Below are positions 47,175 to 55,142 of a stretch of 64,000 nucleotides of DNA, piece by piece. The stretch comes from an uncultured Thermoplasmata archaeon (GTDB lineage: Archaea; Thermoplasmatota; Thermoplasmata; RBG-16-68-12): assembly GCA_963768855.1 (NCBI GenBank), contig CAVYJM010000006.1, positions 128,001 through 192,000 of the forward strand, in the 5' to 3' direction. A program made the position numbers and the translations under genes. The notes beneath the pieces are model-generated. The model did not search any database. It had not been told where the DNA came from and saw only the letters and a program-made list of their open reading frames with translations. Within the stretch, counting starts at the first letter, position 1. Every line of letters starts with the position of its first letter.

Positions 47175-47217
47175 GGGCGAACCCTTAATCCCCCGGGCGG
47201 AATGGGCGGAGCGGACC

Positions 47218-47838
47218 ATGGACGCGTTCTTCGACCAGCGCCTGATCGGCCAGATGCGGAACTTCGGGTATCTCCTCGGCGATCCGACGAAGAAGGTCGC
47301 CGCCGTGATCGACCCGAGCTTCGACGCGCGCATCCTTCAGCAGGTCGCCCGCGAGAACGGCTACTCGATCGATATCATCTTCAACACGCACCACCACCCC
47401 GACCACATCTTCGACAACGAGCGCCTGGCGGACGAGACGGGCGGGAAGGTCGCGGCCCACGAGCTGAGCATGGCCCGCAAGGACGTCATCCTCCACGACG
47501 GCGACATCGTGAAGGTCGGAGAGCTGAAGGTGAAGGTCGTGCACACGCCGGGCCATTCGCCGGATTCGTGCTGCTTCATCGTCGCGGGCCGGGTCTTCAC
47601 CGGGGACTGCCTGTTCGTCGGGGATTGCGGCCGCACGGACCTACCCGGATCGGACGTCCGGCAGATGTACGAATCCCTGTTCAACAAGGTCCGGAAGATG
47701 GACGACGATCTCGTCGTCTGCCCGGGACATCACTACGGCAAGACGCCGACGTCGACGATCGGCCGGGAGAAGAAGACGAACTACGTGCTCCAGCCGCGGA
47801 GCGTGGACGAGTTCGTCGAGTTTATGCAGACGCCTTAG
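47218..47838 (+). CDS. MBL-fold hydrolase (glyoxalase II-like)
   Basis: THHHPDH, TPGHS, FTGD, PGH. Confidence 0.92.
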   Translation: MDAFFDQRLIGQMRNFGYLLGDPTKKVAAVIDPSFDARILQQVARENGYSIDIIFNTHHHPDHIFDNERLADETGGKVAAHELSMARKDVILHDGDIVKVGELKVKVVHTPGHSPDSCCFIVAGRVFTGDCLFVGDCGRTDLPGSDVRQMYESLFNKVRKMDDDLVVCPGHHYGKTPTSTIGREKKTNYVLQPRSVDEFVEFMQTP

Positions 47839-50249
47839 CCGGACGCGATTTCCGCCTCAACAGGCGGTGCTTCGGTCTTCTTCTTTCGGGCGGGGGCCCT
47901 CTTCCTAGCAGGCTTCTTCGGCGCGCCCCCCGCCGGTTTCGAGGCGGCCTTCTTCCGCTTTCCGTTCTTCGCGGGACACTCCATGTTCAGGCACAGGATC
48001 CACGGCGGGCGGCCGCGCATGATGACCTTGACGACGGGGTGGCCGCAGGCCTTGCACCGGTCTGGCGTCGGAAGGATGAGGCCGCGGGACGGAAGCGGAT
48101 ACGAGTTCTTGCAGTCCGGGTAGCTCGTGCAGCCGACGAACCGCTTGCCGTAGGAACCGTGCCGGATGGTCAGTTCACCGGTGCCGCACTTGTCGCACTT
48201 GCCGATGAAGTTCTTTTCCCGCACGGTCGGGCAGTCCGAGGCGACGCAGAGCAGCGTCTCCCGCCCGCGGTCCGTGAGCTTGATCATCGGCGAGCCGCAC
48301 TCGGGGCAGATCTGCGCAGCGCTCTCGAGGAGGCCCATCTGCGGGAGCGGGTGCGTGTTGCGGCACAGGGGGTAGCGGTCGCAGCCGAGGAATCGCGTGC
48401 CCCGCCGCGAGCGGATGACCACGAGGTTGCCCTCCTTGCAGACGTTGCACTTCCCGATGTAGTTCTGCTCGCGCAGGGCGGAGGCGATCTCCTGGCCGAT
48501 CGCCTCGCGGTTCTTCTCGAGGGTCTCGAGGATCTCCGTGAGCATCTCCTGGGAGTTCTGGACGACGACTCTGGGCTCGAGGACGCCGCGGGCGATGCTC
48601 TCCATCTCCGCCTCGAGGTGGGCCGTCATCTCTGGCTGGGTGATGCGCGCCGCATGGTCCTCAAGAGCCTGGATCACCGCGCGCCCGCCGATCGTCGGCT
48701 TGGGGTATTTGCCCTCGATGAACTTGCGGTCGTAGAGCTTTTTGATGATCTCGTGCCGCGTCGACTTCGTGCCGAGGCCGAGCCTCTCCATCTCCTGGAT
48801 CAGGCTGCCTTCCGAATATCGGGCGGGAGGCTTCGTGCGGTCCGCGTGGACGTCCACGGGTCCGACCCGATCGAGCTGCTCCTGGACCACGAGGGTGGGC
48901 AGGGATGCCTCGCGCACCTGCCAGTAGGGATAGTACTTGCGCCAGCCCAGGGACCGCATCACGTAGCCCTGGGCCTTGAACGCCTGCCCCGCGAGGTCGA
49001 TCCTCGCCTCCGACGCCAAGGCGACCGCGTTCGGCGCGACCGTCGCGAAGAAGCGGCGGACGACGAGCTCGTAGATCCGCCAGTGGTCGTCGCGCTTGAC
49101 CTTCTCCCGCGTGGCGCCCGCCACCGGGTAGATGGGCGGGTGGTCCGTGGCCTGCGTGCGTCCGCGGCTCGGGCGGATGTGCTCCTGAGCGGCGAGCTCG
49201 CGCGCCTCCGCGGCGAACGGCGACTCGGCGAGCTTCTCGAGGACGGAGCGCAGGTTGACCGTCGAGGGATAGACGGTGTTGTCCGTGCGGGGATAGGAGA
49301 TGTAGCCGCCCTGGTAGAGGTCCTCCGCGATCTTCATCGCCTGGGCGGCGCCGAAGCCGAGCCGGTTCGCCTCCGCCACGAACATCGTCGTGTTGAAGGG
49401 CGGCGGGGGATGCTCCTCGCGCTCGTTCTGGATGTACTCGAGGACGGTGCCCTTGGACGCGGTCTCGGCCTGCGCCTTGGCCGCCTCGGCCTCCTTATGC
49501 GCCCAGTACGGCCCATGCTCGTGGTCCGCCTCGAACTCGGCGGGCTTGCCCTCGACCGTCTTGGAGAACTTGGCGTGGAGCGTCCAGTAGTCCTCCGGGA
49601 CGAAGTCCTCGATCACCCGCTCGCGGTCCACGACGAGGGCGAGCGTCGGGCTCTGGACGCGGCCGACGGACAGGAAGTCCTTCCCGACCTGCTTCGAGGC
49701 GAGGGACAGGAACCGCGTGAGGACGGCGCCCCAGGCGAGGTCGAGAGACTGCCGAGACTCCGCGGCGGCCGCAAGAGGGAAGTCGACCTCGGCGAGCTCG
49801 TTGAACGCGCGCTCGATGTCCCACTTCGTGAGGGCGCTGAACCGTGCGCGCTTGACGGCGACCTTCGGATTCGCGGAGCGGATGATCTCGAGGGCCTCGA
49901 CCCCGATCAGTTCGCCTTCTCGGTCGAAGTCCGTCGCGATGATGACCTCGTCCGCCTGGGATCCGAGGGTCTTGAGTGCCGCGGCGATCTTCCCCGCGGT
50001 CACGACCTTCTCCTGGTCGGCCCAGATCAGTTCCTTGAGGTCCGTCCGCTGCCAGTCGTTGAGGGCCGCGGGATAGTCCAGGTTGATGATGTGTCCGCGG
50101 AGGCCGACGACCTGGTACCGGTCGTCCCCCTTGGGCCACTCGAAGACCGTGGCGCCGTCCACGTAGGCGCGTTTTGCCTTCCCGTCGCTGAGGATGGTGG
50201 CGATGCGCACCGCTGCGTTGAACTTCTCCGTCACGATGAGTTGCCGCAC
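47835..50249 (-). CDS. topA: DNA topoisomerase IA with C-terminal Zn ribbons
   Basis: TOPRIM ATDFDREGE, SVGRVQSPTL, GYISYPRTD (catalytic Tyr), GLGTKSTR, Cys-rich repeats. Confidence 0.96.
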   Translation of the reverse strand: MRQLIVTEKFNAAVRIATILSDGKAKRAYVDGATVFEWPKGDDRYQVVGLRGHIINLDYPAALNDWQRTDLKELIWADQEKVVTAGKIAAALKTLGSQADEVIIATDFDREGELIGVEALEIIRSANPKVAVKRARFSALTKWDIERAFNELAEVDFPLAAAAESRQSLDLAWGAVLTRFLSLASKQVGKDFLSVGRVQSPTLALVVDRERVIEDFVPEDYWTLHAKFSKTVEGKPAEFEADHEHGPYWAHKEAEAAKAQAETASKGTVLEYIQNEREEHPPPPFNTTMFVAEANRLGFGAAQAMKIAEDLYQGGYISYPRTDNTVYPSTVNLRSVLEKLAESPFAAEARELAAQEHIRPSRGRTQATDHPPIYPVAGATREKVKRDDHWRIYELVVRRFFATVAPNAVALASEARIDLAGQAFKAQGYVMRSLGWRKYYPYWQVREASLPTLVVQEQLDRVGPVDVHADRTKPPARYSEGSLIQEMERLGLGTKSTRHEIIKKLYDRKFIEGKYPKPTIGGRAVIQALEDHAARITQPEMTAHLEAEMESIARGVLEPRVVVQNSQEMLTEILETLEKNREAIGQEIASALREQNYIGKCNVCKEGNLVVIRSRRGTRFLGCDRYPLCRNTHPLPQMGLLESAAQICPECGSPMIKLTDRGRETLLCVASDCPTVREKNFIGKCDKCGTGELTIRHGSYGKRFVGCTSYPDCKNSYPLPSRGLILPTPDRCKACGHPVVKVIMRGRPPWILCLNMECPAKNGKRKKAASKPAGGAPKKPARKRAPARKKKTEAPPVEAEIASG

Positions 50250-50366
50250 GACTCTCGTCGCACGCGGGGGGACTTATTTAACGATTTGGGGGTGAGTCGC
50301 GGACCTCGCTGCTCTCCATGTGCGGAAGCGTTTCTCCACGCGCGCACGCGCGTTTTTGCCGCGCGC

Positions 50367-51731
50367 TCACGAGGCCTTGGTCGTGAGCAGGAACGCGTCC
50401 ATCGCAAGGGCCGCGCGCTTGCCCGCCGCCATCGCGTGCACGACGCTCGCGCCGCCGCCCGCGTAGACGCCGGGGCGCTTCGTCGCGCCCGTCTCGGGAT
50501 CGGCTTGGAGGGTGCCGTCCTTCGCGAGCTTGACCTCCAGGTCCTTCGGCAGGATCTCGAGGTCCGCCTCTTGGCTCACGGCCAGGATCGCGGCATCGCA
50601 CTTCACGGTGATCGGCGGCGTGTTCGTCGGCACGGGCCGGCGTCGTCCGCTTTCGTCGGGCGGTCCGAGCTCCATCTGCTGGAGTTCGATCCCTTCGAGA
50701 CGCTTCGTGCCGAGGAAGCGCTTCGGCGCGACGAGGAACTGGAACTTCACGCCCTCGTCCATGGCCTCCTTGACCTCCTGGTCGTCCGCGGGCATCTCCT
50801 CGCGGCTCCGGCGGTACAGGATCGTGACCTCCTCCGCGCCATGGCGGAAGGCGGAGCGCGCGGAGTCCATCGCGACGTCGCCGCCCCCGATGACGACGAC
50901 CTTGGGCCGGATCGACTTGCGCTCGCCGCGCTTGGATTCCTTGAGGTACTTCAGCGCGGAGTACACGCCGTCGAGGTCCTCGCCGGGGATGCCCAGGCCG
51001 CGGGACTTGTGCGTCCCGATGCTCACGAAGACGGCATCGAACTCGAGGAGCAGGTCGTCCAGGTTGAGCTCACTCGGGAACTCGGCGTGGAAGACGAAGT
51101 GAACGGGGAGGTTCGCGAACCGCGCCATGTCCTCCTGGAACGTCTCGTCCGTGAGGCGATAGGCGGGGATCGTCCCGGACATCAGGCCGCCGAGGCGGTC
51201 CGAGGACTCGAAGACGGTCACGTCGTAACCGCGCTGGCCGAGGACCCATGCGTTCATCAGGCCCGCGGGGCCGCCCCCAATCACCCCGATCTTCATCCCG
51301 TTCGTCGGGACGACGGGCGCGTACGGTTTCGCGGGGTCTGCGTACATCATCGCGGCCTGCTTGAGATGGCGGACCGCGATCGCCTCGCCGCGCTTCACGA
51401 TGGGGCAGACGCGCTCGCAGTAGTGGTAGCAGACGTCGCCGAGGCACGAGGCCAGGGGGTTGTCTCGCAGGATCAGGTCGCGGGCGCCGTTGAAGTCCTC
51501 GGCGGCCATGAGCTTGATGTAGCCGCGCGCGTCCTGGTGGATCGGGCACTCCTCCATGCACCACGGCTTGCCGCACTGGATGCATCGCTGGGCCTCGATG
51601 AGGGCCTCCTCGCGGGTGTAGGGGATGAGGGCCTCGATGAACGCGCCGCGCCGCTCCATCGGATCGTTCTCGTGGATGGGCGTGCGCTTCGGGTTCAGTG
51701 GCTTCTTCTTGGGGGGCGCCTGCTCGGGCAT
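50367..51731 (-). CDS. GltD/SudA-like Fe-S flavoprotein (NADPH oxidoreductase)
   Basis: CIQCGKPWCMEECP, GGGPAG, GIP.YRL, VIGGGDVAMD. Confidence 0.9.
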   Translation of the reverse strand: MPEQAPPKKKPLNPKRTPIHENDPMERRGAFIEALIPYTREEALIEAQRCIQCGKPWCMEECPIHQDARGYIKLMAAEDFNGARDLILRDNPLASCLGDVCYHYCERVCPIVKRGEAIAVRHLKQAAMMYADPAKPYAPVVPTNGMKIGVIGGGPAGLMNAWVLGQRGYDVTVFESSDRLGGLMSGTIPAYRLTDETFQEDMARFANLPVHFVFHAEFPSELNLDDLLLEFDAVFVSIGTHKSRGLGIPGEDLDGVYSALKYLKESKRGERKSIRPKVVVIGGGDVAMDSARSAFRHGAEEVTILYRRSREEMPADDQEVKEAMDEGVKFQFLVAPKRFLGTKRLEGIELQQMELGPPDESGRRRPVPTNTPPITVKCDAAILAVSQEADLEILPKDLEVKLAKDGTLQADPETGATKRPGVYAGGGASVVHAMAAGKRAALAMDAFLLTTKAS

Positions 51732-51846
51732 GGAAATCGTCTCCCTGTCGGCCCGAGGGACCCATGAACACTCCGAAAGGAGAGTAATAACAATGCGGAC
51801 TCGTGCAGGCCGACCCCACCGTTACCGTTCCGCGCTTCCCGAGCCG

Positions 51847-52509
51847 CTACGCGGACCGTCCCTTCTCGAACGCGTCGCGGAGTTCCTCCGCGGCGTGTCG
51901 CGGGTCCGGTGCGTCCATGATCGCCGAGACCACTGCGACGCCGGCGATGCCGTGCCGCGCGAGCTGCCGCGCTCGCTCCTCGGTGATGCCGCCGATCGCG
52001 AATACGGGCAGGCGGGTGCGACGCACCACCAGGTCGAGGAGATGCAGGGGGAACTCGGGCTCCTCGGGCTTCGTCGGGCTCGGGAAGAATGGTCCGATTC
52101 CGAGGTAGTCCGCGCCGGCGGCCTCCGCGCTCTGCTCCTCCCCGGGCTTTCCGTAGACCGTGACCCCCACCAATGCCGCAGGTCCCAGGAGCGCGCGCGC
52201 GATTCGCGGCGAGGGGTCGTCCCGGCCCACATGCACGCCGTCCGCCGCTAGGCGCTTCGCGAGCTGCGGGTCATCGTTCACGAGGAGAGGCACATTGCGC
52301 TGGTGGCAGAGATCCTTCAGCGCGTTGCACACGTCCTGCCGTTCCGCGTCGGAGTACTGGCCCTTGTCGCGGAACTGGACGAGGGAGACCCCGCCTTCGA
52401 GCGCGGCCTCCACCGTGGACACGAGGGCGGACACGGGCCGTTTCGGCGACGTCACGAGGTAGACGCCGCTCAGCTTCCACTTCTCGCGTCGACCCGGCTC
52501 CGCGCTCAG
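51847..52509 (-). CDS. thiE: Thiamine-phosphate synthase (start uncertain)
   Basis: VQFRDK, VNDD, ADGVHVG.DD, SPTK, FAIGGI. Confidence 0.92.
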   Translation of the reverse strand: MSAEPGRREKWKLSGVYLVTSPKRPVSALVSTVEAALEGGVSLVQFRDKGQYSDAERQDVCNALKDLCHQRNVPLLVNDDPQLAKRLAADGVHVGRDDPSPRIARALLGPAALVGVTVYGKPGEEQSAEAAGADYLGIGPFFPSPTKPEEPEFPLHLLDLVVRRTRLPVFAIGGITEERARQLARHGIAGVAVVSAIMDAPDPRHAAEELRDAFEKGRSA

Positions 52510-53570
52510 ACGATCTCCCCAGACAGGGCCCGGCTGAAGGCGACCCAGAAGGGATCTCGCTCCGCCGGCCCGAAGGCCGCGCCCCGGTCCCTGCACGGGC
52601 CGCCCCGCTTCGTGAAGGCCCCGACGTCCACGGCAAGGATTCCCTTGCGCTTCAACCTCGCGATGACCCGCTCGCTCGAGTCCGGATGGACCGCCAGGAG
52701 GAGCGTGCCCTCGCTGATCGCGTCGAGCGGCTCCATGCCGAAGACCCGGCAGACCTCGACCACGGCTGGGTCGATGGGCACCTTGGTCAGGTCCACGTCG
52801 ACCCCCAAGCGCGACGCCTGGGACATCTCCCAGACCGCGTTCCGCACGCCGCCTTCCGTGGCGTCGTGCATCGCCCAGACGCCGTCGTTGCGGAGGCCTG
52901 CGGCGGCGACGGCGGTGAGCGCGTCGTCGACGGTGCTCATCGAGTCGAAGAGGGCCTTCGCCTGCGCGGTCCTCTCCGGGGAGAGGTGCCGCGAGGTAAT
53001 CTCACCGAACGTGTTCGCGAGGATGGCGGTGGCCTCGAGAGCCGCGGTCTTCGTGACGAGGAGGCGGTTTCCCGGCCGTGCCATGTCCGAGGTCACCCAG
53101 CCGTCCTTCGCGGCGATCGCGAGGAACGTGGCCCCGCCGACCATGGGGTAGTTGCAGCCTTCATACCGCCCCGTGTGCCCCGTCACGATTGCGGTGCCAT
53201 ACTTCCTTGCCTCGCGGTCCATGACCTTCAGCATCGCCTCGATCTGGTCGTCCTCGATGTCCATCGGGAGGTTCCAGTCCATCGTCGCGTACTGTGGCGC
53301 CACGCCCGAGGTCGCGAGGTCGGATGCCAGGATGTGGAAGGCGAACCAGGCGGCCCGCTCCCAGCCGTACGGCGGGACGATGTAGATCGGGTCCGTCGTC
53401 GAGATGAGCGCCCGGCCGTCCGGGAGACGCACAACCCCCACGTCGACGCCGTTCGCGGGCCCCTTCGCGATGTCCTTGCGCCTCGCCCCGAGCCGATGGG
53501 AGATCACGTTCTCGAAGAAGGCGCGGCTGATCTTGCCCATGGGATACTTGGGCTTCGGCACGTCCGTCAT
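52506..53570 (-). CDS. AIR-synthase-family (PurM/HypE/ThiL-like) protein
   Basis: MGKI, GVDVG, TTDP, SDLATSG, GHT, HDATEGG. Confidence 0.88.
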   Translation of the reverse strand: MTDVPKPKYPMGKISRAFFENVISHRLGARRKDIAKGPANGVDVGVVRLPDGRALISTTDPIYIVPPYGWERAAWFAFHILASDLATSGVAPQYATMDWNLPMDIEDDQIEAMLKVMDREARKYGTAIVTGHTGRYEGCNYPMVGGATFLAIAAKDGWVTSDMARPGNRLLVTKTAALEATAILANTFGEITSRHLSPERTAQAKALFDSMSTVDDALTAVAAAGLRNDGVWAMHDATEGGVRNAVWEMSQASRLGVDVDLTKVPIDPAVVEVCRVFGMEPLDAISEGTLLLAVHPDSSERVIARLKRKGILAVDVGAFTKRGGPCRDRGAAFGPAERDPFWVAFSRALSGEIV

Positions 53571-53614
53571 GGTCCGGGAGACTCCTCAGGGTCCCCGGGC
53601 TGAAAAGCTCCTGG

Positions 53615-53706
53615 TGTTCCCTACGCCCGCATGACCGGGATCAGGTTCCAAGGGTCTATCCCTCACTCGGGATACTCTCAGCCCTTCTGGGCTCCCCGAG
53701 AGAAGC
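53615..53706 (-). ncRNA. TPP (thiamine pyrophosphate) riboswitch
   Basis: CTCGGGGAGCCCAGAAGGGCTGAGA...GACCCTTGGAACCTGATCCCGGTCATGCGGGCGTAGGGAA: J3/2 UGAGA, CCUGAU, P5 CCCG/CGGG and P1 TTCTC/GGGAA; directly upstream of a thiE operon. Confidence 0.93.
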
Positions 53707-53827
53707 ATGCCGGAGGGCTACTTGAACGTTCCCCGCATCGGAGCCTAGGCATGCGGGCGGTTCACGTCCGTCATACAGACCTTACGGAAAGTACCTAAGT
53801 CGCCAGCTAGATTTCGGTGGCCGAGGG

Positions 53828-54265
53828 ATGTCTGTGGAGGATGTCACCGCCTATCGGATGAGGCATCGGCTTCGGGCTTGGACGCGGCAGCGCCGGAGGT
53901 GGCTGGCCGTGGCGGTCGTGATGGTGGCCGTCGTCCTCGCTGGAGCATTTGTTTTCGAGGTGACGCAGCAACCACAAGTGGCGATCGATTCCTCTGCGAG
54001 CCAAGCGAACGCCAACATCTATGGCGTGGCCTACATTACGGTGTGGTTCACCCTCACAAACTCGGGGCAGGTGGACGGGATTGCGACCGTCAACTTGGTT
54101 GTGGTGAAGGACACACTGCACTCAGTGGTCGCTCAAGAGCGCTATCTCGTGCCTGCTCACGCGAGCATGGACTTCCAGCTTTCAGTACCCTGGCCTTTCT
54201 ATCTCGGCTCGACCTCCGACCTTGGGTCCCCCTACGCCGATCTGGTATCCGTGGTCAAGGCCTGA
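53828..54265 (+). CDS. Hypothetical membrane-anchored beta-rich protein
   Basis: Basic N-terminus, one TM helix, VWFTLTNSG..G...V beta-sandwich-like pattern; lower GC3 than neighbours. Confidence 0.65.
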   Translation: MSVEDVTAYRMRHRLRAWTRQRRRWLAVAVVMVAVVLAGAFVFEVTQQPQVAIDSSASQANANIYGVAYITVWFTLTNSGQVDGIATVNLVVVKDTLHSVVAQERYLVPAHASMDFQLSVPWPFYLGSTSDLGSPYADLVSVVKA

Positions 54266-54278
54266 GCAGGGTCGGACC

Positions 54279-55142
54279 TCAAGTCGTGGCCAGTAACTTC
54301 GCGATGTTCACCGGATAGTCCGCCACGGGCACGCCCGCGTCGTTGAAGGCCTTCACCTTGGACTCCGCGGTGCCCATATTGCCCTGGATGATCGCGCCCG
54401 CATGCCCCATCCGCTTCCCCGGCGGCGCGGTGCGACCGGCCACGTAGGCCACCACGGGCTTCGTGACGTTCCGTTGGATGTACGCGGCCGCCTCCTCCTC
54501 GGCGGTGCCGCCAATCTCGCCCACGACGACGATGCGCTTCGTCTTCCGGTCTCCCTGGAACAGCTCGAGGGCCTCGTGGGTGTTCGTCCCGATGATCGGA
54601 TCCCCGCCGATCCCGACGCAGGTGGACTGCCCGAACCCCGCCTGGGTCATCGCATTGACGATTTCATAGGTCAGGGTGCCGCTGCGGCTGATCACGCCGC
54701 AGTCGCCGGGCTTGAAGATGTGGCTGGGCATGATTCCCAGCTTCGACTCCGCGGGCGTGATGATCCCGGGGCAGTTCGGCCCGATCACGACGGCGCCCTT
54801 CGTCCGCGCGTAGGGGATGAACTCGAGGGTGTCGTGGAACGGGATGCGCTCCGTGATGATCACGACGAGCTTGAGGCCCGCCTCCATCGCCTCGATCGCC
54901 GCGTCCTTCGTGAACGGTGCGGGGACGAAGATGATCGACGCGTTCGCTCGCTTCTTGTCCACGGCCTGCTGCACGCTGTCGAAGACCGGGACGCCCTCGA
55001 CCTTCGTCCCGCCCTTTCCCGGAGAGCATCCGGCCACGACCTTCGTGCCGAAGTCGAGCATCGCGCGGGTGTGGAACTGGCCCTGGTGGCCCGTGATGCC
55101 CTGTACGACGACGCGCGAGCGCTTCGTGAGGAGGACGGCCAT
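54279..55142 (-). CDS. sucD: Succinyl-CoA synthetase alpha subunit
   Basis: [33 protein letters not shown]. Confidence 0.97.

What the first reader, a model, noticed from the sequence alone, without database searches (positions are those of the whole stretch)
53571..53706. TPP riboswitch in an archaeon, with an SD-sequestering hairpin
Seen: a complete TPP aptamer on the minus strand, with an extra hairpin TATCCC-GAGTGA-GGGATA. Downstream, CCGGGGAC/GTCTCCCGG can pair around the GAGGAG SD just before the ATG at 53570. Established: metabolite riboswitches are rare in archaea, and TPP aptamers are best known from Thermoplasmatales. Inference: translational control of an enzyme operon (AIR-synthase-family gene + thiE), and support for a Thermoplasmata host.
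Basis: partly seen in the sequence, partly recalled or inferred. Interest (0 to 1): 0.72.

Follow-up and report, generated by a model that had tools for sequence, protein, structure and literature searches.

The report
Archaeal TPP riboswitch lacking P1
A genuine vitamin-B1 (TPP) riboswitch in a soil Thermoplasmata archaeon precedes an orphan PurM-like enzyme gene and thiE; it seems to lack the usual closing helix and probably blocks ribosome binding when TPP is abundant.

Summary
Rfam's TPP model matches window 53601-53708 (-) at 61.7 bits (cut-off 54.3). The host is a Thermoplasmata MAG with an archaeal 16S rRNA on the same contig. The element occurs in 18 of 24 congeneric genomes, with compensatory changes in P3a and P5.

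New points:
- No P1 helix is supported. A conserved BRE/TATA box 21 nt upstream of P2 puts the inferred transcript start at the first G of P2.
- The conserved 3' tail (CGAGGA-NN-UUUUCAGCC) is complementary to the aptamer core. It is also complementary to the SD region, which is a near copy of that core.
- RNAalifold's consensus is an aptamer-disrupting fold that leaves the ribosome-binding site free.

Best reading: a translational OFF switch. With TPP bound, the freed tail or a local hairpin masks the SD.

The operon is an orphan PurM-like enzyme plus ThiE. ThiC, Thi4 and ThiM were not found in the genome. This scan has already seen that enzyme family under TPP riboswitches on other DNA.

It is a known kind in a new variant. 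All mechanism is computational: no transcript start, TPP binding or regulation was measured.

The parts
53719..53734 (-). Putative archaeal promoter: BRE (GGGGAACG) plus TATA box TTCAAGTA (53726-53719)
   Evidence: AA..TTCA..TA is conserved at a fixed 21-22 nt from P2 in all genus members, in both gene contexts, while the spacer between is not conserved. The same motif lies 22-24 nt before start codons of putative leaderless genes of this genome.
53697..53697 (-). Predicted transcription start (first G of P2, after a conserved C). Inferred, not measured.
   Evidence: TATA-to-start distance was calibrated on the organism's own genome. C|G fits the pyrimidine(-1)/purine(+1) rule.
53618..53697 (-). 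TPP aptamer without P1. P2 is 53697-53695 with 53654-53652. P3 is 53692-53689 with 53684-53681. J3-2 (CUGAGAG) is 53681-53675. P3a is 53674-53657. P4/P5 is 53645-53620.
   Evidence: RF00059 at 61.7 bits. Helices are 97-100% paired in 28 relatives, with double changes in P3a and P5.
53597..53617 (-). Conserved 3' tail, the proposed switching strand: CCAGG (53614-53610; CGAGG in relatives) and UUUUCAGCCC (53606-53597)
   Evidence: The tail pairs with CCUUG/CUUGG of the aptamer (96.4% of cells, 2 compensatory changes) and with GGGCUGAGAG (95%). It also pairs with the SD region (94.9%). For the window the tail:RBS duplex is -19.0 and the tail:core duplex -12.7 kcal/mol, against about -8 for shuffled tails.
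53574..53598 (-). Local RBS hairpin: CCGGGGAC(C) / (GGA)GUCUCCCGG. Its 5' arm (53596-53588) can instead pair with the 5' end of the aptamer (GGGG..CCC).
   Evidence: The hairpin folds at -13.8 kcal/mol. Its inner pairs are 82-96% kept, with G-C/G-U and some double changes. The alternative pairing with aptamer positions 1-9 is 88.7% kept and is chosen by RNAalifold and by the MFE fold.
53582..53587 (-). Shine-Dalgarno-like GAGGAG, part of CUGAGGAGUCUCC, a near copy of the aptamer core CUGAGAGUAUCC
   Evidence: AGGAG is complementary to the CUCCU 3' end of the 16S rRNA. GGAG/GGAA is kept in all 28 relatives. SD use in the genome is shown by a peak at -12. Here the offset is -16, at the long edge.
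52506..53570 (-). First regulated gene: PurM-superfamily (AIRS + AIRS_C) protein, 354 aa, orphan subfamily
   Evidence: Pfam PF00586/PF02769. It falls below the cut-offs of ThiL, HypE and SelD. The canonical ThiL is elsewhere. Homologues lie behind TPP riboswitches in several bacterial phyla.
51847..52596 (-). thiE (thiamine-phosphate synthase). Its frame overlaps the end of the PurM-like gene and the true start is uncertain.
   Evidence: TIGR00693 199.5 bits (cut-off 145.1) and PF02581 189 bits. The junction was read.

Best explanation
This is a functional TPP riboswitch of a Thermoplasmata archaeon. It most likely represses translation of a two-gene thiamine operon (PurM-like enzyme + ThiE) when TPP is abundant.

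The mRNA probably starts at the first G of helix P2, so the aptamer has no P1. Two mutually exclusive folds exist.

1. Without TPP: the conserved tail pairs with the aptamer, CGAGG with CCUUG of P2-3'/J2-4 and UUUUCAGCCC with GGGCUGAGAG of P3/J3-2. The 5'-terminal GGGG..CCC pairs with the 5' arm of the RBS hairpin. The SD, spacer and AUG are left single-stranded, so the gene is ON.
2. With TPP: P2/P3 and the binding pocket are locked and the tail is released. Either the tail pairs with the SD region, which mimics the aptamer core, or the local hairpin forms. Both mask the SD, so the gene is OFF.

Shown here: aptamer identity, conservation, the pairing potentials and their conservation.

Inferred: the transcript start, ligand dependence, and the effect on ribosome binding.
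For: - Aptamer: 61.7 bits against 54.3. It is present in 18/24 congeners, with covariation in P3a and P5.
- Alternative fold: RNAalifold on 28 sequences returns exactly this fold, with the RBS unpaired. So does the MFE fold of the window's predicted transcript. Cells paired: H2 95%, H3 96.4% with U-A to A-U and U-A to G-C double changes, H4 88.7%, against 64% or less when partners are slid.
- Tail: its duplex with the RBS averages -12.9 and with the core -13.9 kcal/mol, against about -8 +/- 2.8 for shuffled tails. The anti-SD pairing UUUUCAG:CUGAGGA is kept in 94.9% of cells.
- Holo-state masks for the window: tail:RBS helix -18.1, local hairpin -17.3 kcal/mol.
- Modelled unpaired probability of SD..+22 rises from 0.38 (aptamer closed) to 0.53 (alternative fold) in 28/28 sequences. 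For the window it rises from 0.36 to 0.59.
- No P1: cmscan flags all P1 pairs. Native 5'/3' duplexes are no better than swapped ones (p 0.16).
- Promoter: it sits at a fixed 21 nt from P2. Leaderless start codons lie 22-24 nt after the same motif.
- SD use and the anti-SD sequence.
Against: - Nothing was measured: no transcript start, no TPP binding, no reporter.
- The 28 sequences are close relatives (85% mean column identity). Most alternative-fold pairs are invariant on both sides, so conservation could have another cause. Only H3 shows true double changes.
- Tail:RBS and tail:core pairing show no partner-specific covariation (permutation p 0.50 and 0.28).
- For the window, an alternative fold that keeps the RBS hairpin is 1.8 kcal/mol better than the one that opens it. 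In a looser model the accessibility difference was small.
- The MFE is not exceptional against shuffles (z -0.92).
- SD-to-AUG spacing (offset -16) is longer than the genomic mode of -12.
- Contigs from RNA libraries of relatives run on upstream through the TATA box (loose ends at 53697-53699). If these are RNA, some transcripts carry a 5' extension.
Confidence: 0.6

Rival explanations
1. It is a classical TPP riboswitch with a P1 helix. Transcription starts further upstream, and the window's GCUUCU (53706-53701) pairs with AGGAGC (53612-53607) as P1. P1 formation on TPP binding frees or occupies the tail, as in bacterial thiM-type switches.
For: A 6-bp complementarity exists in the window (-7.6 kcal/mol). 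Several relatives carry CCUCG upstream that could pair with CGAGG. Contigs of RNA libraries extend upstream of P2. Other Thermoplasmata families do show a P1.
Against: The candidate 5' strands lie at different distances and are not conserved. Native pairs are no better than swapped pairs. cmscan finds no P1. The BRE/TATA box at a fixed 21 nt would place those nucleotides upstream of the start. By eye, lineages with a clear P1 have the TATA box 27-35 nt from P2.
Confidence: 0.2
2. Control is transcriptional. The conserved U tract (53606-53603) acts as an archaeal oligo-U termination signal or as an entry site for a termination factor, and its exposure depends on TPP because the tail is single-stranded only when the aptamer is closed.
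For: A run of 4-6 U is conserved in a 67% G+C genome directly after the aptamer. In the TPP-bound model the tail is free. Archaeal termination at oligo-U without a hairpin is established knowledge.
Against: Four U is short for efficient archaeal termination. Three relatives interrupt the run with G (L009, L016, L095). The U tract is equally explained by pairing to GAGAG and to GAGGA. RNA-library contigs join the riboswitch and the coding region (records 3 and 26), although this cannot give ratios.
Confidence: 0.12
3. The aptamer binds TPP but is a relic without regulatory effect, or regulates mRNA stability only.
For: No experiment exists. Thermodynamic differences between the states are modest for the window.
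Against: There is near-invariance of 80 nt plus a 20-nt tail and an RBS motif across 28 distinct sequences, while the flanks diverge. The element recurs before two different first genes.
Confidence: 0.05

Closest known systems
TPP riboswitches (THI elements) of Thermoplasma / Ferroplasma and relatives, Rfam RF00059
   Same: Same aptamer class, same archaeal class. TPP and fluoride riboswitches are the two classes known to be common in archaea, with 79 riboswitches counted in Euryarchaeota (PMC5473149). I found the class in 36 of 151 genomes sampled.
   Different: The described ones precede multi-pass membrane proteins (bioRxiv 10.1101/538918). This one precedes cytoplasmic enzymes: a PurM-like protein and ThiE. 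In the low-G+C family f24 the start codon lies in or next to the P1 3' strand (by eye). Here there is no P1, a 47-nt SD-containing platform and a conserved switching tail.
E. coli thiM TPP riboswitch (translational, SD masking by an anti-SD; from my own knowledge of Winkler et al. 2002 and later work, not re-read here)
   Same: OFF switch. An anti-SD strand pairs with the SD when TPP is bound and with part of the aptamer when it is not.
   Different: In thiM the switching involves P1. Here the partner of the anti-SD is the ligand-binding core (P3/J3-2) plus J2-4. The SD region copies that core, the mRNA 5' end itself takes part, and the host is an archaeon.
Fluoride riboswitch of Thermococcus kodakarensis
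   Same: An archaeal riboswitch thought to act on translation. As of 2021 it was the only natural archaeal riboswitch tested experimentally (PMC8241225).
   Different: Different ligand and fold. No archaeal TPP riboswitch mechanism turned up in the papers I could search.
ThiL / HypE / SelD / PurM (PurM superfamily), for the regulated gene
   Same: AIRS and AIRS_C domains. The best solved relatives are HypE (E 1.9e-17) and ThiL (E 9e-06).
   Different: It scores far below the family cut-offs: ThiL 68.9 against 184, HypE 78.6 against 252. A canonical ThiL is encoded elsewhere.

Membership tests
TPP riboswitch aptamer (RF00059) | Covariance-model score at or above the gathering threshold | tested here: met
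   61.7 bits against 54.3; E 1.1e-09 in the window and 1.1e-11 in the genome search.
TPP riboswitch aptamer (RF00059) | Conserved ligand-contact motifs: CUGAGA in J3-2, ACCUGAUC, and GCGUAGGGA | tested here: met
   All are present and aligned with posterior probability '*', and invariant in 28 relatives.
TPP riboswitch aptamer (RF00059) | Two sensor arms, P2-P3(-P3a) and P4-P5, kept by base-pair covariation | tested here: met
   97-100% of cells are paired. P3a is A-U/C-G 17:11 and P5 is G-C/C-G 19:9.
TPP riboswitch aptamer (RF00059) | P1 helix closing the three-way junction | tested here: not met
   All five model pairs are non-standard. There is no covariation or excess complementarity. The promoter position argues that the 5' strand is not transcribed. 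The core of the family definition is still met, so I file it as a member with a variant architecture.
TPP riboswitch aptamer (RF00059) | Binds TPP with a structural change | not testable with these tools
   Needs in-line probing, ITC or SHAPE.
TPP riboswitch (as a regulator) | Lies 5' of thiamine synthesis or transport genes, with an expression platform offering mutually exclusive pairings | tested here: met
   The downstream genes are ThiE and a thiamine-linked PurM-like gene; in relatives an NCS1 permease comes first. The alternative fold was found without guidance by RNAalifold and MFE folding.
ThiL (thiamine-monophosphate kinase, TIGR01379), for the first gene | Score above the curated cut-off, and being the genome's ThiL | tested here: not met
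   68.9 bits against 184.15. Another locus scores 247.9 bits.
HypE (TIGR02124), for the first gene | Score above the curated cut-off | tested here: not met
   78.6 bits against 251.6. Some sources name homologues HypE, which looks like over-annotation.

The most novel reading that the evidence does not exclude
A TPP riboswitch architecture that dispenses with P1. Transcription starts at P2, and the 5'-terminal nucleotides and the ligand-binding core themselves serve as the anti-sequestor. The ribosome-binding site has evolved as a sequence mimic of the aptamer core, so that one tail can pair with either. Promoter spacing in a second high-G+C Thermoplasmata family (f17, 20-26 nt from TATA to P2, no consistent P1) hints that 5'-terminal, P1-less TPP aptamers may be common in archaea. 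In addition, the regulated PurM-like enzyme may replace hydroxyethylthiazole kinase (ThiM) or carry out another unrecognised step on the thiazole side of thiamine salvage.
Probability: 0.4. Interest if true: 0.65.

Novelty: new variant of a known kind. Interest (0 to 1): 0.5.

Why it matters
TPP riboswitches are the only riboswitch class found in all three domains, yet I found no archaeal one whose mechanism has been worked out.

This lineage offers a compact, testable 130-nt system. It has a predicted 5'-terminal aptamer without P1, a clear pair of alternative folds, and an SD-dependent platform in an archaeon. If confirmed, it would show how an archaeal riboswitch couples ligand binding to translation. 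It would also show that P1, the switching helix in bacterial and eukaryotic examples, is dispensable.

The riboswitch further marks an orphan PurM-like enzyme as part of thiamine metabolism, in organisms where ThiC, Thi4 and ThiM were not found. That bears on vitamin B1 auxotrophy and exchange in soils.

Tried and rejected
1. P1 from the window's GCUUCU/AGGAGC. Rejected as a conserved feature.
2. An H-type pseudoknot of UUUUCAG with the loop of the intact RBS hairpin. Set aside on geometry, because no loop nucleotides are left to cross a 7-bp stem. The two pairings are better seen as alternatives of similar energy.
3. Transcript start from public RNA data. Four soil or sediment RNA-library runs hold relatives' contigs over the riboswitch and gene. 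Contigs cannot show 5' ends or exclude DNA, so there is no verdict.
4. First accessibility model. It used a wrong aptamer boundary and was discarded. The repeat gave only a small difference, because the alternative fold often kept the hairpin.
5. Fold energy against shuffles. Not significant (z -0.92), so the case rests on comparative data.
6. Partner-specific covariation of tail:RBS and tail:core. None found.
7. Literature. Rodionov et al. 2002 is not held. No paper links 'AIR synthase' with 'TPP riboswitch'.
8. ThiL or HypE identity of the first gene. Rejected.

Full report
**Observation.** Reading 53400-53900 on the minus strand and scanning the whole window against Rfam gives one TPP riboswitch hit, 53601-53708 (-). 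It scores 61.7 bits against a gathering score of 54.3, with E 1.1e-09 over the full model. The invariant pocket motifs (CUGAGA; AACCUGAUCC; GCGUAGGGAA) align perfectly. It is the only TPP aptamer in the 2.87-Mb assembly (24 contigs, 93.6% complete, 7.7% contaminated). The cmscan alignment marks every pair of P1 as non-standard.

**Host and distribution.**
- A full-length archaeal SSU rRNA (1494 bits) lies on the same contig, so contamination is not an issue for this locus.
- The nearest loci for the downstream protein are MAGs titled Thermoplasmata, Methanomassiliicoccales or Methanobacteriota archaeon, many from soil.
- The aptamer is present in 18 of 24 other genomes of the genus and 1 of 16 others in the order.
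- It is present in 36 of 151 genomes sampled across the class, concentrated in five families.
- Archaeal TPP riboswitches are established, though sparse (PMC5473149). They have been described before transporter genes in Thermoplasmatales (bioRxiv 10.1101/538918). As of 2021 the only archaeal riboswitch tested at the bench was a fluoride one (PMC8241225).

**No P1, and a promoter at P2.**
- In 28 distinct sequences of the genus, the 21 nt upstream of P2 are not conserved. A box AA(A)CG-TTCATATA (window TTCAAGTA, 53726-53719) is conserved at a fixed distance, whether the first gene is the PurM-like gene or a permease.
- Duplex energies between each 5' region and its own 3' tail (-9.0 kcal/mol) are no better than with other sequences' tails (-8.7; permutation p 0.16).
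- To calibrate the box, I searched this genome for the same motif upstream of candidate start codons of coding-like frames. Fourteen of 16 hits between 21 and 25 nt fall at 22-24 nt, against a background of about one per position. These promoters share the AACG/AACC element and are taken as leaderless genes.
- The first G of P2 lies 22 nt after the box and follows a conserved C. The transcript is therefore inferred to begin at about 53697, leaving no 5' strand for P1.
- By eye, class members that do have a P1 carry their TATA box 27-35 nt from P2.
- This is an inference. Contigs from RNA libraries of relatives continue upstream through the box, but they cannot distinguish DNA, read-through and true 5' ends.

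**Two folds.** After the aptamer comes a conserved tail: CGAGGA-NN-UUUUCAGCC in relatives, CCAGGAGC-UUUUCAGCCC in the window (53614-53597). It is followed by GGGGACCCUGAGGAGUCUCCCGG and the AUG.

Counting pairs on the 28-sequence alignment gives these results.

| Element | Cells paired | Notes |
|---|---|---|
| Aptamer helices | 97-100% | double changes in P3a and P5 |
| Local RBS hairpin | 74.7% | inner five pairs 82-96% |
| H2: GGGCUGAGAG with UUUUCAGCCC | 95% | |
| H3: CCUUG with CGAGG | 96.4% | two double changes, U-A to A-U in L004 and U-A to G-C in L009 |
| H4: 5' GGGG..CCC with GGG..ACCU (5' arm of the hairpin) | 88.7% | |
| UUUUCAG with the SD CUGAGGA | 94.9% | |
| Alternative fold with partners slid | 64% or less | control |

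- RNAalifold, given no hint, returns H4+H2+H3 with P3a and P4/P5 kept and everything from the SD onward unpaired.
- The MFE fold of the window's predicted 138-nt transcript is the same, at -55.4 kcal/mol.
- The SD region CUGAGGAGUCUCC is almost a copy of the aptamer core CUGAGAGUAUCC (CUGAGAGUCUCC in many relatives).
- Accordingly the tail pairs about equally well with either. The mean is -12.9 kcal/mol with the RBS and -13.9 with the core, against about -8 for shuffled tails.
- For the freed tail plus platform of the window, a long tail:RBS helix (-18.1) and the local hairpin (-17.3) are near-isoenergetic, and both bury the SD.
- Modelled accessibility of SD..+22 is higher in the alternative fold than with the aptamer closed in 28 of 28 sequences (0.53 against 0.38). 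For the window it is 0.59 against 0.36.

**Caveats.**
- The sequences are close kin and most pairs never vary.
- For the window, an alternative fold that keeps the hairpin is 1.8 kcal/mol better than the one that opens it. Co-transcriptional order would favour the opening one, but that is an argument, not data.
- The fold energy is unremarkable against shuffles.

**Ribosome-binding site.** The 16S rRNA ends GGAUCACCUCCU, so AGGAG can form five pairs. SD-like pentamers peak at -12 before candidate starts in this genome. Here the offset is -16 (-14 to -17 in relatives), at the long edge. The start at 53570 is supported by start codons at the same place in relatives and by the conserved N-terminus.

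**What is controlled.**
- The first gene (53570-52506) has AIRS and AIRS_C domains. It scores far below the ThiL, HypE and SelD cut-offs.
- ThiE follows, overlapping it.
- In some relatives an NCS1 permease precedes both.
- A canonical ThiL and a ThiD are encoded elsewhere. ThiC, a real Thi4 and ThiM were not found in this 93.6%-complete genome.
- Homologues at 41-48% identity lie directly behind TPP riboswitches in Caldithrix, Bacillota, Thermoleophilia, Dehalogenimonas and unclassified bacteria. They sit in operons with ThiE, ThiD and TenA but never ThiM. In a haloarchaeon the homologue lies next to ThiDN.
- Among 151 class genomes the PurM-like gene was found in 24 and ThiM in 24, with none holding both and the families disjoint. 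Kinship weakens this test.
- A replacement of thiazole kinase, or another step on the thiazole side, is a reasonable hypothesis.
- Earlier notes of this scan reached similar readings on other genomes. I tested the claim only partly.

**Verdict.** This is a real, conserved TPP riboswitch in a Thermoplasmata archaeon: a known kind, with a variant architecture. It has no supported P1, a predicted 5'-terminal aptamer, a bifunctional tail, and an RBS that mimics the aptamer core. It most likely acts as a translational OFF switch. The aptamer call is secure. The mechanism is a well-supported model at about 0.6. The missing P1 is at about 0.55-0.6, pending a mapped 5' end.

Noticed in passing
window 52506-53570 (-); L041-L074: Orphan PurM-like (AIRS/AIRS_C) family tied to thiamine. 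It lies behind TPP riboswitches in at least five bacterial lineages and in Thermoplasmata, always with ThiE, ThiD or TenA and never ThiM. It was found in 24 of 151 class genomes and ThiM in 24, with none holding both. Some sources annotate it as HypE.
   Followed up: partly
L005, L013, L015, L031, L069 (about 50 nt after the aptamer): In five relatives where the riboswitch precedes the NCS1 permease, ACG stands where other relatives have the AUG start. I saw no in-frame AUG/GUG/UUG between the aptamer and the conserved N-terminus (traced by hand in L005 only). This may be a non-canonical start codon.
   Followed up: no
L076-L102 (other Thermoplasmata families): Each family has its own platform. 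In f24 (low G+C) the start codon lies in or just after the P1 3' strand, with no SD. In f17 (high G+C) perfect anti-SD/SD hairpins (for example CUCCUCUGC...GCAGAGGAG) sit just before the start; the anti-SD is also complementary to the aptamer's AGAGGA, and the TATA box is 20-26 nt from P2. In f14 a hairpin pairs an upstream strand with the first codons.
   Followed up: partly
whole genome G000: ThiC, a true Thi4 and ThiM were not found, while ThiD, ThiE, ThiL and an NCS1 permease are present. The organism looks dependent on external pyrimidine and thiazole precursors. The genome is 93.6% complete.
   Followed up: partly
whole genome G000: The genome shows both initiation modes. Putative leaderless genes have AACG-TT(C/T)A..TA 22-24 nt before the start codon. 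SD-like pentamers peak at -12 before other candidate starts.
   Followed up: partly
window 53735-54278: About 540 nt between sucD (54279-55142, -) and the riboswitch promoter has only ORFs without a family match (53807-54121 -, 53828-54265 +). That is long for this compact genome.
   Followed up: no
L051:2136-2199: A fluoride riboswitch (43.4 bits) lies just downstream of the PurM-like homologue in a Thermosulfidibacter MAG.
   Followed up: no
window 47202-51767 (+): A 1521-aa open frame without any Pfam match overlaps, on the opposite strand, a GltD-like oxidoreductase gene (50367-51731, -). It is probably a spurious high-G+C frame.
   Followed up: no
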